In this document: piece by piece, positions 1 through 11,505 of the stretch
Position numbering within the stretch: position 1 is the stretch's first letter
How the letters are laid out: the number at the start of each line of letters is the position of its first letter
Source: a virus
DNA: 25,301 bases
Virus genome (UHGV): UHGV-0254345
Strand: one strand, 5' to 3'
The notes under the pieces: model-generated
Database searches by the model: none
What the model was told of the DNA's origin: nothing
What the model saw: the letters and a program-made list of their open reading frames with translations, nothing else
Position numbers and translations under genes: made by a program

Positions 1-2
1 AG

Positions 3-218
3 TTAAGAAAGCGTCCTGATTTCCTTGTCTGGCTCTGTGAAAAGCTGGGGGTAATGAGAATCCCCTCCATGTTTAACATGGACTCCTGGTGGACCCCGTC
101 GCTCTCCCGTGATGCCCTGTGCGTGGTGTTTAAAGTAGGCGCTTATGGCAGGGAAATAAAAGGGGGTATTCCTGAAGAATGCCAGGAGATTAAACATTCT
201 GAATATGTGGCGCTGACG
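3..218 (+). CDS. 3' end of an upstream gene (hypothetical protein, partial)
   Basis: Open frame from window edge to TAA at 216-218 (…GREIKGGIPEECQEIKHSEYVALTEE*); not in ORF track because it lacks an in-window start; protein-like composition; same strand as downstream operon. Confidence 0.3.
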
Positions 219-230
219 GAGGAATAATTC

Positions 231-578
231 ATGATTGATGCAAAAGTGCTTGAAGGGGTTAAAAACTGGCTGAGTATTTACGGGCGTCTGACCTGCGGCA
301 TTCTGGCTGAAAAAATGAATATGCCGCCATCCTCGATGGTTTATTTTCTGCGTGATGCGGTCGATGCCGGGGTGCTGACGGAATGTAACGGTTTTTATGA
401 TATTCCGCGTCCCCGCCCGGTGCAGCCGGTTCGTCGCAAATGCAGCCAGGAAGGTGCGGCTGATGATGTTCAGTGGTGCAGCTTCAGAAAATCCCTGCCG
501 TGGATTGAGGGGCATGATATTCCGTCAATGGCGTGGGAATTTGCTCAGGGCGTTCTGACCTGTATTTGTCCTCCGTAA
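231..578 (+). CDS. putative HTH DNA-binding protein, probably C-terminally truncated by rearrangement
   Basis: ATG at 231 preceded by GGAGG (about 9 nt upstream); N-terminal helix-turn-helix-like segment; last 13 in-frame residues SMAWEFAQGVLTC are encoded by repeat A (521-563), then a 4-codon tail (ICPP) ends inside repeat B. Confidence 0.5.
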   Translation: MIDAKVLEGVKNWLSIYGRLTCGILAEKMNMPPSSMVYFLRDAVDAGVLTECNGFYDIPRPRPVQPVRRKCSQEGAADDVQWCSFRKSLPWIEGHDIPSMAWEFAQGVLTCICPP

Positions 579-747
579 AACGCAGTCCCTTAAAACAAAA
601 ACCACTGATACTGAATTCAAATACCGACCGGCACGCAACATTCAGCACGGCCTCAAGGCGTTTCGCCTCATCCTTAACTTTCTGGCAGTCCTGCTGATAT
701 TTTTGCCACGCGGCCAGCGCGGAAGGGTTTGATGTTTTAAAGAACAT
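484..747 (-). CDS. hypothetical protein; N-terminal part looks like the displaced 5' half of a gene (fused via repeat B to an out-of-frame tail)
   Basis: Minus-strand ATG (plus 745-747) preceded by GGAGG about 8 nt upstream on the minus strand, overlapping the stop of the upstream minus ORF as TAATG; contains repeat-B-encoded peptide FEFSISGFCFKGLRFTEDKY. Confidence 0.4.
   Translation of the reverse strand: MFFKTSNPSALAAWQKYQQDCQKVKDEAKRLEAVLNVACRSVFEFSISGFCFKGLRFTEDKYRSERPEQIPTPLTEYHAPQSTAGIF
521..563. repeat. inverted repeat A (43 bp), partner at 948-990
   Basis: tccgtcaatggcgtgggaatttgctcagggcgttctgacctgt is the exact reverse complement of 948-990 by direct comparison. Confidence 0.9.
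564..619. repeat. inverted repeat B (56 bp), partner at 991-1046
   Basis: atttgtcctccgtaaaacgcagtcccttaaaacaaaaaccactgatactgaattca is the exact reverse complement of 991-1046; abuts repeat A. Confidence 0.9.
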
Positions 748-983
748 TACGCCACCTCCGCAGATATCCCGGCAGGCGCGGCCGTCCGGTCAACAATCAG
801 GTAACGCAGAACGCGCGAGGTGATATTCCAGCCGCTTAAACCGCAGATAATGACACCCAGGCGTATGTCGATATACGCCATCACAAACCGGGGCACGCCT
901 TCTTTCATGGCCTGCTCATCAACTTCAGCCACCACATAAACGGTTTCACAGGTCAGAACGCCCTGAGCAAATTCCCACGCCAT
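747..983 (-). CDS. hypothetical protein fragment; looks like the displaced 3' half of the gene at 231-578
   Basis: Begins MAWEFAQGVLTC (encoded by repeat A' in the same frame as in ORF 231-578); no clear SD before its ATG; stop overlaps next minus ORF start. Confidence 0.35.
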   Translation of the reverse strand: MAWEFAQGVLTCETVYVVAEVDEQAMKEGVPRFVMAYIDIRLGVIICGLSGWNITSRVLRYLIVDRTAAPAGISAEVA

Positions 984-990
984 TGACGGA
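948..990. repeat. inverted repeat A' (reverse complement of 521-563)
   Basis: Exact 43-bp reverse-complement match. Confidence 0.9.
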
Positions 991-1378
991 TGAATTCAGT
1001 ATCAGTGGTTTTTGTTTTAAGGGACTGCGTTTTACGGAGGACAAATATCCTTTTCATCGCGACTTATGGCGAAAACCGACTGCGTCGAATGGCTGGAGCT
1101 GCACGCCGCGCACATCGCGCATTCCCAAAGCCCTGCGCACTGCCTCTGACGAACTGAACAGTCTGTGGCGTGAATATTCGCCCGTCACGTATGCCAGAAC
1201 CGATGCCCTGTTGTTCTGGCTGGGCATTGATTTCTCAGCAATCCTGTATGGCCCTGTGGAGTGGTTCTGCGTTGACGATGTGATTTATCTTCAGTGCGGT
1301 GTAAAACCCGCAAATCAGAAAATGACCGAAATTCTGTCTGATGAGTTTTATGCTGCTGAAAAGCGAGTCAGGGGGTGA
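983..1378 (+). pseudogene. hypothetical protein lacking its native 5' end (start only via TTG, no SD)
   Basis: Frame is open from 854; first candidate start is TTG 983 with no RBS; N-terminal 20 aa duplicate the repeat-B peptide of the minus ORF 484-747; ends 3 nt before the next gene. Confidence 0.4.
991..1046. repeat. inverted repeat B' (reverse complement of 564-619)
   Basis: Exact 56-bp reverse-complement match (a 57th base may also match). Confidence 0.9.
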
Positions 1379-1381
1379 TGC

Positions 1382-1933
1382 ATGATGAAATTACAACCCA
1401 TGGGGCGAAAAGGTCGTGCACCTGCTCATGTCCGCCCGTGGACACCTGAAGAAGATGCGCTGCTGATTGCGCTTTATTCCTCCACCCCGGTTAAGGATAT
1501 TGCCGCCAGAATAAAAAGAAGTGTCTGGGCCGTATATAACCGGACTGGCGTATTGCGCAGTACATACCCGGAGTTGCTGAAATATAAACGACCGCGATTT
1601 ACACCTGATGAAGATAAATTTATCCGAAAAAATGCCCGGACAATGACCTGCCAGCAAATGGGGGATTATCTCGGACGTAATAAAGACTCTGTCAGGTGCC
1701 GCGCAGGAATGATTGGTGCCGGATTAACAAAGTGCGGTGAGTTACGCCCCGGCACACGTATATCTGATGAGGATGTTCGTCTTATACGTGCACTACGGGA
1801 TTCCGATTACCCTCGCCGTCTGTCATTCCGGGAAATTGGCGAAAAGTTTGGCATATCTGAACATTCTGCTCACGCTGTTTATTACCGTCGACGGACCGCC
1901 GAGGACGCTGTATTACGGGAGTTAACGCCATGA
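1382..1933 (+). CDS. putative DNA-binding protein with tandem Myb/SANT-like HTH repeats
   Basis: GGGGG SD-like run upstream of ATG; three repeats of a W/F-T-P-(E/D)-ED…L-like motif (PWTPEEDALL, RFTPDEDKFI, ISDEDVRLI) typical of Myb/SANT-type helix-turn-helix domains; stop overlaps next start (ATGA). Confidence 0.5.
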   Translation: MMKLQPMGRKGRAPAHVRPWTPEEDALLIALYSSTPVKDIAARIKRSVWAVYNRTGVLRSTYPELLKYKRPRFTPDEDKFIRKNARTMTCQQMGDYLGRNKDSVRCRAGMIGAGLTKCGELRPGTRISDEDVRLIRALRDSDYPRRLSFREIGEKFGISEHSAHAVYYRRRTAEDAVLRELTP

Positions 1934-2115
1934 TAAAGAGACTTGTATTTTTCGCAATTATCGTTCCAGTGTGGGGGACTGGTTTTATATTTGCGATTAC
2001 AGGAAACCTGTCCATTATGCCTGACATTTGGTTCTTTATCAGGATGTCGCTCTTCCTGTTTATTATGGATTTTCTCATCGGTATATACATTCGTATTTCC
2101 GGGAGGCGTAAATGA
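1930..2115 (+). CDS. small membrane protein (two predicted TM helices), hypothetical
   Basis: ATGA overlap with upstream stop; 61 aa, very hydrophobic (LVFFAIIVPVWGTGFIFAI… / MSLFLFIMDFLIGIYI); lies in AT-rich segment. Confidence 0.45.
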   Translation: MIKRLVFFAIIVPVWGTGFIFAITGNLSIMPDIWFFIRMSLFLFIMDFLIGIYIRISGRRK

Positions 2116-11422: not shown

Positions 11423-11505
11423 CGGTCAGTGGCGGGGGTCGAACCCGCATACATGATCCACCCGGAGGCAGGCACCGACTTTACCAGTTAAGCGTACACT
11501 GACCG
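11423..11505 (-). other. tRNA-like structured element (acceptor-like stem plus canonical T-arm; no anticodon arm found)
   Basis: On the minus strand: 9-bp perfect stem (11423-11431 with 11497-11505) stacked on a 5-bp stem GCGGG/CCCGC closing a 7-nt loop TTCGACC (T-loop-like); a D-arm-like hairpin with GG loop is possible; hand search found no 5-bp anticodon stem. Confidence 0.3.

What the first reader, a model, noticed from the sequence alone, without database searches (positions are those of the whole stretch)
521..1047. Two interleaved perfect inverted-repeat pairs (43 bp and 56 bp) bracket a 328-bp segment
Repeat A (521-563) and repeat B (564-619) are adjacent; their exact reverse complements A' (948-990) and B' (991-1046) are also adjacent, but in the order A'-B' rather than the B'-A' a simple inverted duplication would give. 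The layout is therefore A-B-[620-947]-A'-B'. This is the footprint of an inversion of the central segment with inverted duplication of both breakpoint sequences, or of a segment that can flip by recombination between either repeat pair. Perfect identity over 43 and 56 bp implies a recent event or ongoing homogenisation.
Basis: seen in the sequence. Interest (0 to 1): 0.7.

Follow-up and report, generated by a model that had tools for sequence, protein, structure and literature searches.

The report
One-off inversion scar in Mu-like prophage
The two interleaved perfect inverted repeats are real, but they are by-products of a single recent 427-base inversion-with-duplication that breaks two small non-essential-looking genes (gp11 and gp12) of an E. 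coli Mu-like prophage, not a conserved switch, and only the original reads can show whether it happened in the cell or during sequencing.

Summary
A 521-563 and A' 948-990 (43 nt), and B 563/564-619 and B' 991-1047 (56-57 nt), are 100% complementary, in the order A-B-M-A'-B'. They are the only long perfect repeats in the window.

Undoing the rearrangement (1-563 + rc(620-947) + 991-end) gives a sequence that matches E. coli FORC_069 exactly over 1901 bp. Over all 25,202 bp it differs by 4 SNPs. So the window equals the ancestral Mu-like prophage with the block A-M'-B' (427 nt) copied in reverse between A and B'.

All 233 E. coli records carrying this locus have the un-inverted, single-copy layout, and none has the window's. 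Contigs of the window's own SNP lineage are also un-inverted. Mu and D108 have gam-11-12 on one strand. The two new junctions and the chimeric ORF products appear in no collection searched.

The event truncates gp11 (111 of 177 aa) and splits gp12. The layout is the '3-1-4-2' outcome of the four-point template-switch model, and the staggered-break inversion model predicts it too.

It is not a programmed invertible element. Whether it arose in vivo or as an artefact cannot be decided without reads. Interest is low to moderate.

The parts
231..578 (+). Truncated gp11-like gene: the first 111 of 177 residues, then a new 4-residue tail (ICPP) and a stop inside repeat B
   Evidence: The intact 177-aa gene in relatives hits Pfam PF25754 Gp11_C at residues 90-167 and phrog_1949.
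521..563 (+). Repeat A, the copy in its ancestral position (end of fragment L->1)
   Evidence: It is single-copy in all relatives.
563..564 (.). Novel junction J1 (A|B), 1 nt of microhomology (T)
   Evidence: The 34-mer across it is absent from genome contigs, viral contigs and metagenome contigs and from all 31 loci held when one search ran (L001-L031); the later D108 locus L032 was not scanned.
564..990 (-). The 427-nt inverted block, the reverse complement of ancestral A-M'-B': B (564-619), inverted spacer M (620-947), A' (948-990)
   Evidence: exact reconstruction. In one search this block matches all 233 E. coli records on the opposite strand.
484..747 (-). Stranded gp12 N-terminal fragment (62 residues match gp12) running out of frame into rc(A)
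   Evidence: Its product is not on record in the protein collection.
747..983 (-). Stranded gp11 C-terminal fragment (residues 100-177) starting from an internal Met
990..991 (.). Novel junction J2 (A'|B'), no microhomology
   Evidence: The 34-mer across it is absent from metagenome contigs and genome contigs.
991..1047 (+). Repeat B', the copy in its ancestral position (start of fragment 4->R)
991..1378 (+). Remainder of the gp12-like gene (C-terminal 128 residues plus stop), cut off from its start codon
   Evidence: The intact 171-aa gene is PF26885 Phage_Mu_Gp12 / phrog_2314.

Best explanation
The feature is the scar of one copying error of the switch-and-return kind in the early region of an E. 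coli Mu-like prophage.

Shown: the window equals the ancestral sequence L-A-M'-B'-R rewritten as L-A + reverse complement of (A-M'-B') + B'-R.

Inferred: a polymerase copied up to the end of A (ancestral position 563). It jumped to the opposite strand at the end of B' (947) and copied 427 nt backwards to the start of A (521). It then returned to the original strand at the start of B' (892). This single event inverts the 328-nt spacer, adds 99 nt, and creates both perfect inverted-repeat pairs in the crossing order A-B...A'-B'. The repeats are therefore consequences of the inversion, not its cause.

The event truncates gp11 after residue 111 and separates the first 62 residues of gp12 from the rest. 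The stranded fragments lie antisense to the early operon with no promoter-like site. I think the event most likely happened in vivo at a replication fork. The same path taken in vitro during amplification cannot be excluded without reads.

Once made, the structure is metastable. Recombination at A/A' would restore gp11 and recombination at B/B' would restore gp12. Either flip leaves direct repeats whose deletion gives back the wild type exactly (simulated, not observed).
For: - Exact reconstruction: there are 0 mismatches to FORC_069 over 1901 bp and only 4 SNPs over 25,202 bp. Three of these SNPs are shared by independent contigs of the same lineage; the fourth, at window 22231, lies outside those contigs and was not checked.
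- The ancestral state is unambiguous. A 627-bp un-inverted query is colinear in 233 of 233 E. coli records. The window form is colinear in 0 of 233, with the 428-nt block on the opposite strand.
- Every gene-called contig that spans this part of the prophage, among those fetched through neighbouring genes, shows intact 177-aa gp11 and 171-aa gp12.
- Mu, D108, SfMu and Yersinia Mu-like phages have full-length gp11, and D108 has gam-11-12 all on one strand.
[quoted passage not shown] The points here are 3=521 < 1=563 < 4=892 < 2=947.
- One event explains the inversion, both duplications and the perfect identity.
- E. coli lacks classical NHEJ (PMC4872102), which disfavours the break-and-join rival.
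- The disrupted genes lie in Mu's gam-to-gemA early region. That this region is dispensable for growth is my own knowledge, not tested here.
Against: - This is a single instance. The junctions J1 and J2 and two chimeric ORF products are in no collection searched, so there is no independent confirmation and no read support.
- The junctions have only 1 nt and 0 nt of microhomology, which is low for microhomology-primed switching.
- The copied-back fragment is 427 nt, much longer than the tens of bases typical of the published short template-switch events. Type 3-1-4-2 was only 1% of those events.
- The final sequence cannot distinguish a template switch from staggered breaks with fill-in.
Confidence: 0.55

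Rival explanations
1. Sequencing, amplification or assembly artefact, or an edited sequence. The source DNA has the ordinary layout, and chimeric molecules or reads, or a mis-join, put the 427-nt block in backwards with duplicated ends.
For: The arrangement is unique. It is absent from 233 E. coli records, from contigs of the same SNP lineage and from three contig collections. The chimeric proteins are not on record. The junctions are almost blunt at 0-1 nt. Strand-displacing polymerases are known to make inverted chimeras within a few kb (PMC1855051).
Against: The ancestral sequence has no inverted repeat here, so an assembler has no graph ambiguity to mis-resolve. Both novel junctions must exist in reads and must be mutually consistent. 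MDA chimeras are typically single inverted junctions with an intervening deletion, and more than 70% show 2-21 nt of priming homology. Here nothing is deleted, two matched junctions are needed, and the homology is 0-1 nt. The rest of the window is of high quality: its only differences from FORC_069 are 4 SNPs, three of which recur in independent contigs.
Confidence: 0.3
2. In vivo breakage and rejoining. [quoted passage not shown] The overhangs are filled in and the segment is religated in reverse. This is the isochromatid staggered-break model proposed for Drosophila inversions.
For: [quoted passage not shown] Near-blunt junctions of 0-1 nt fit end-joining. The prophage encodes a Gam protein that binds DNA ends. 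That Mu Gam is related to Ku is my own knowledge.
Against: E. coli has no Ku/LigD NHEJ (PMC4872102), and its alternative end-joining is rare (cited there as Chayot 2010). Four coordinated nicks and two blunt ligations are less parsimonious than one switch-and-return. Mu Gam blocks repair rather than ligating ends.
Confidence: 0.1
3. A programmed or selected invertible switch (phase variation) that toggles gp11/gp12 by recombination between the repeat pairs.
For: Perfect repeats of 43 and 57 nt are long enough for RecA-dependent exchange (my own knowledge). In simulation, a flip at A/A' restores gp11 and a flip at B/B' restores gp12.
Against: The repeats do not exist in any relative, and no alternative orientation was seen in 233 records. 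No recombinase gene is nearby. The prophage's only recombinase-family gene is about 26 kb away, beside the tail-fibre genes, which carry their own inverted repeats. The present state breaks both genes. No promoter-like site was found on either strand of 1-1500. The crossing repeat order is not that of known invertons.
Confidence: 0.03

Closest known systems
Template-switch mutation, four-point model event type '3-1-4-2' (Loytynoja & Goldman 2017, PMC5453318), a generalisation of the Ripley/Lovett quasipalindrome template switching described in bacteria
   Same: The derived sequence equals L->1 + reverse complement of 2->3 + 4->R of the ancestor, with point order 3<1<4<2. [quoted passage not shown]
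   Different: The scale differs: the copied-back fragment is 427 nt, against tens of bases in the published sets. There is no pre-existing near-palindrome, and only 0-1 nt of homology at the switch points. The setting is a bacterial prophage, whereas the published examples are primate genomes.
Inversions with inverted duplications at both breakpoints from staggered breaks (Ranz et al. 2007, PMC1885836)
   Same: The final architecture is identical, and the duplicated sequences are ancestrally unique gene fragments. The duplications reveal which arrangement is derived.
   Different: Those inversions span kilobases to megabases in a eukaryote with NHEJ, and their duplications have a median length of about 321 bp. 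Here the inversion is 427 nt in E. coli, which lacks NHEJ.
Phage Mu G segment with Gin invertase (programmed DNA inversion)
   Same: Both involve a Mu-type phage and a segment bounded by inverted repeats.
   Different: In the G-type segment the repeats are conserved, sit in tail-fibre genes next to the recombinase, and switch between two functional gene sets. In FORC_069 that system lies outside the window (L014 36030-37362 plus the recombinase gene at 37433-38005). Here the repeats are private, cross each other, have no recombinase nearby, and disrupt genes.
MDA or strand-displacement chimeras (Lasken & Stockwell 2007, PMC1855051)
   Same: Both show a short-range intramolecular inverted junction made by a polymerase changing template.
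   Different: Typical chimeras have one junction, an intervening deletion, and 2-21 nt of priming homology in more than 70% of cases. Here there are two matched junctions, no loss of sequence, and 0-1 nt of homology.

Membership tests
Four-point template-switch event, type 3-1-4-2 | The derived sequence is exactly L->1 + reverse complement(2->3) + 4->R of an ancestral sequence | tested here: met
   0 mismatches over 1901 bp against FORC_069; the whole window has 4 SNPs and no other structural difference.
Four-point template-switch event, type 3-1-4-2 | [quoted passage not shown] | tested here: met
   Points are 521<563<892<947 in ancestral coordinates. The definition is taken from PMC5453318.
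Four-point template-switch event, type 3-1-4-2 | Short range, within one replication fork | tested here: inconclusive
   All four points lie within 427 nt. This is longer than the tens of bases typical of the published events. It is shorter than an E. coli Okazaki fragment (my own knowledge).
Four-point template-switch event, type 3-1-4-2 | Arose during DNA replication in the cell | not testable with these tools
   No reads or culture are available. The junctions are absent from all collections searched.
Staggered-break inversion (Ranz model) | [quoted passage not shown] | tested here: met
Staggered-break inversion (Ranz model) | Non-homologous end-joining available to religate the ends | not testable with these tools
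   The host genome is not in the window. The literature states that E. coli lacks NHEJ (PMC4872102).
Programmed invertible segment (Gin/Hin-type or inverton) | Flanking inverted repeats conserved among relatives | tested here: not met
   A and B' are single-copy in 233 of 233 E. coli records and in the contigs.
Programmed invertible segment (Gin/Hin-type or inverton) | Both orientations occur in natural populations | tested here: not met
   None of the 233 records has the window's orientation, and all are colinear with the un-inverted form.
Programmed invertible segment (Gin/Hin-type or inverton) | Site-specific recombinase encoded next to the segment | tested here: not met
   The neighbours are gam, a phrog_2260 gene, gp11, gp12 and a Myb-like gene. 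The only recombinase-family gene is about 26 kb away, beside the tail-fibre genes.
Programmed invertible segment (Gin/Hin-type or inverton) | Inversion switches between functional states | tested here: not met
   The present state breaks both genes. No promoter-like site was found in 1-1500.
IS/transposon-mediated inversion | The duplicated inverted copies are a mobile element with transposase or terminal repeats | tested here: not met
   The duplicated sequences are 43-nt and 56-nt pieces of the gp11 and gp12 coding sequence.
MDA-type chimera | Inverted junction with an intervening deletion and 2-21 nt of priming homology | tested here: not met
   No sequence is lost (net gain of 99 nt), and the homology is 1 nt and 0 nt. 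The criteria come from PMC1855051. This does not exclude other kinds of artefact.

The most novel reading that the evidence does not exclude
The rearrangement is a genuine in vivo product, and such switch-and-return events of several hundred bases recur in transposable (Mu-type) phages, whose DNA is copied many times by restarted host forks. If so, they would create metastable, precisely reversible gene knock-outs. In this case homologous exchange at A/A' or B/B' would give four states that restore gp11 or gp12 alternately or revert cleanly to wild type.
Probability: 0.05. Interest if true: 0.55.

Novelty: new member of a known kind. Interest (0 to 1): 0.25.

Why it matters
If the rearrangement is real, it is an unusually clean and unusually long (427 nt) bacterial example of a rare class of template-switch mutation. 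The ancestor is known base for base, so the four switch points are defined exactly. It also shows how perfect inverted repeats, and an apparent 'inverton', can arise in one step from unique sequence. That is a useful caution for repeat-based searches for phase-variable elements. It inactivates two Mu early genes of unknown function (gp11, gp12), which suggests they are dispensable for prophage carriage. If it is an artefact, it is a useful example of a mis-join that looks biological. In neither case does it reveal a new biological system.

Tried and rejected
- Tracing the source: the 34-mers across J1 and J2 gave no hit in genome contigs, viral contigs (J1 only) or metagenome contigs.
- Exact look-ups of the chimeric 115-aa and 87-aa ORF products gave no record.
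- Tracing the lineage through the intact neighbour gene and through SNP-bearing proteins (Myb-like protein, GemA S166F, gp27 T59A) found many contigs. Every gene-called contig that spans gp11/gp12 has the normal layout, and none of the loci carries J1 or J2.
- Microhomology or hidden complementarity at the switch points: only 1 nt and 0 nt were found.
- Gin-type switch: rejected. The prophage's real invertase-linked repeats are elsewhere, and the A/B repeats are private to this window.
- IS-mediated inversion: rejected, because the duplicated pieces are gene fragments.
- An EcoRI site (GAATTC) lies next to J2, but the breakpoint is 1 nt before the site (2 nt before the cut position) and the other three breakpoints have no site. 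A restriction or cloning origin was therefore dropped (sequence).
- Promoter and terminator scan of 1-1500: nothing that would give the inverted fragments expression.
- The first census used a 1901-bp query and could have hidden a 427-bp inversion under the 80% threshold. It was repeated with short centred queries.

Full report
**Observation.** The region reads as the first-stage reader described. The repeat finder gives two inverted pairs, 521-563/948-990 (43 nt) and 563-619/991-1047 (57 nt), both 100% complementary. A script confirmed the reverse-complement identities and segment lengths: A 43, B 56, middle 328. B and A share one base, the T at 563. The chance expectation for such pairs in 25.3 kb is about 4e-18 and 1.5e-26. 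A whole-window scan finds no other repeat that is perfect or longer than 32 nt. The order is A-B-M-A'-B', so the two pairs cross rather than nest.

**What the window is.**
- Window 1-2000 matched 234 complete E. coli records, none of them in one piece. In the seven best records the match spanned 1901 bases where the window has 2000. The difference of 99 equals 43+57-1.
- I rebuilt the sequence as window 1-563 + reverse complement of 620-947 + 991-2000. The result is identical, with 0 mismatches over 1901 bp, to E. coli FORC_069 (NZ_CP023061.1).
- Over the whole window, the un-inverted sequence (25,202 nt) differs from FORC_069 by four substitutions and nothing else. Three change an amino acid: GemA S166F, gp27 T59A and a baseplate protein S139N.
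- The window is therefore the ancestral L-A-M'-B'-R rewritten as L-A-[rc(A-M'-B')]-B'-R. Only two junctions are new: J1 at 563|564 and J2 at 990|991. The junctions B|M and M|A' are the ancestral ones read backwards.

**Context.**
- The locus is the early region of a Mu-like prophage: gam, a phrog_2260 gene, a gp11-like gene (177 aa, Pfam Gp11_C, phrog_1949), a gp12-like gene (171 aa, Pfam Phage_Mu_Gp12, phrog_2314), a Myb/SANT-like regulator, then GemA, Mor, lysis genes and the structural genes.
- D108 has gam-11-12-13-14-gemA on one strand. Full-length gp11 is colinear at 66-69% amino-acid identity in Mu, D108, SfMu and Yersinia Mu-like phages.
- In the window, gp11 keeps 111 of 177 residues and then reads ICPP-stop inside B.
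- The first 62 residues of gp12 and the last 78 residues of gp11 sit on the minus strand inside the inverted block. The last 128 residues of gp12 remain on the plus strand without a start codon.
- No sigma-70-like site was found on either strand of 1-1500.

**Is the arrangement conserved or polymorphic?** It is neither.
- A 627-bp un-inverted query centred on the segment is colinear (at least 80% coverage) in 233 of 233 records, representing 232 genomes and 274 prophage copies, at 93-100% identity.
- The window-form 726-bp query is colinear in 0 of 233. Its best match is the 428-nt block (window 563-990) on the opposite strand. Searches give the same picture with longer queries.
- Contigs fetched through the intact Myb-like gene, and through the window's own GemA and gp27 variants, include draft genomes, gut metagenome assemblies and a Logan contig. 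The Logan contig is 100% identical to the un-inverted window over 5.5 kb. Every gene-called contig that spans gp11/gp12 shows both genes intact, and none of the 31 loci held at that point contains J1 or J2.
- J1 and J2 are absent from the genome, viral (J1 only) and metagenome contig collections. Two chimeric ORF products are not on record.
- The arrangement is thus derived, private and recent. Its source assembly could not be found.

**Mechanism.**
- The layout is the '3-1-4-2' outcome of the four-point template-switch model. [quoted passage not shown] This type made up 1% of their human-chimp events (PMC5453318).
- Here 3=521, 1=563, 4=892 and 2=947 in ancestral coordinates. One switch-and-return event explains the inversion, both duplications, the crossing order and the perfect identity.
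- The isochromatid staggered-break model for Drosophila inversions gives the same architecture: fill-in of long overhangs followed by non-homologous end joining (PMC1885836). E. coli lacks NHEJ (PMC4872102), so I rank that model lower.
- Two points count against a microhomology-primed switch: the junctions have only 1 nt and 0 nt of homology, and the copied-back fragment (427 nt) is long for this class.
- An artefact cannot be excluded, because nothing independent confirms the junctions. The ancestral sequence has no inverted repeat that an assembler could mis-resolve, however. Typical MDA chimeras have one inverted junction, an intervening deletion and 2-21 nt of priming homology (PMC1855051). 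Here there are two matched junctions, no loss of sequence and almost no homology.
- I put about 0.55 on a polymerase template switch, most likely in vivo. I put 0.3 on an artefact of some kind, 0.1 on breakage and rejoining, and 0.03 on a programmed switch.

**Consequences (inferred).**
- Both genes are inactivated.
- A read-through early transcript would fold into a 57-bp B:B' duplex. The A:A' helix cannot form at the same time because the pairs cross (MFE -224.8 kcal/mol, z -9.1).
- In simulation, homologous exchange at A/A' gives L-A-M'-B'-A'-B'-R with gp11 intact. Exchange at B/B' gives L-A-B-A-M'-B'-R with gp12 intact. Each product carries direct repeats whose deletion restores the wild type exactly.
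Nothing indicates that it is a selected or enzyme-driven switch.

**Comparison with the phage's real inversion system.** In FORC_069 a recombinase-family gene sits beside the tail-fibre genes, about 26 kb downstream and outside the window. Those genes carry their own inverted repeats of 86 nt at 90% and 50 nt at 84%. None of the defining features of such systems is met at 521-1047: conserved repeats, both orientations in nature, an adjacent recombinase, and functional alternatives.

**Verdict.** The feature is one more instance of a known mutational signature, or a look-alike artefact, in a well-known type of prophage. It is not a new system. Interest is low to moderate. Its value lies in being an exactly resolved, unusually long 3-1-4-2 event, and in warning that inverton-like repeats can arise in one step.

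Noticed in passing
window ~11424-11503 (- strand); L014 21325-21404: RefSeq annotates a 'tRNA-OTHER' here in FORC_069, between the Mu F-like head morphogenesis gene and the virion morphogenesis gene. ARAGORN finds no tRNA or tmRNA anywhere in the window.
   Followed up: partly
L014 36030-37362 and 37433-38005 (outside the window, same prophage in FORC_069): This is the prophage's likely genuine invertible tail-fibre segment. It has inverted repeats of 86 nt (90%) and 50 nt (84%) about 1.0-1.2 kb apart, next to a recombinase-family gene, with a partial tail-fibre gene on the opposite strand.
   Followed up: partly
L014 1339-3387 and 42633-43187: In FORC_069 the roughly 39-kb Mu-like prophage splits the elf/ycb fimbrial usher gene into two partial CDS, as expected for a transposing phage.
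   Followed up: no
L019 (ENA ERZ28660466 scaffold_1387), position 1 = window 1064: A 25,109-nt gut-metagenome scaffold, 100% identical to the window over the 7.4 kb compared, begins 17 nt past the end of B'. Whether this is coincidence or a graph break caused by heterogeneity at this site is unexplained.
   Followed up: no
window 3455, 5449, 6188, 22231: These are the only four substitutions relative to FORC_069 and its five identical sister genomes: GemA S166F, a synonymous change, gp27 T59A and a baseplate protein S139N. The first three recur in independent metagenome and Logan contigs, so they mark a natural sub-lineage rather than errors.
   Followed up: yes
ancestral breakpoints = window 520|521, 563|564 (A side) and 990|991, 1046|1047 (B' side): In the ancestral sequence all four breakpoints fall immediately after a T (ATAT|TCC, CTGT|GAA, TATT|TGA, AAAT|ATC). 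The sample is too small to interpret.
   Followed up: no
window 3-227 and the matching slot in L004-L013: The slot between gam and gp11 is mosaic among relatives. It holds a 180-aa phrog_2260 gene, a 192-aa DUF5420 gene, or no called gene.
   Followed up: no
L022, L023, L030; H29/H30: Several related prophages carry IS insertions (IS1, IS66/ISEc43, and a DDE_Tnp_1 element) in the early region or the portal region. Decay of these Mu-like prophages by other routes is therefore common.
   Followed up: no
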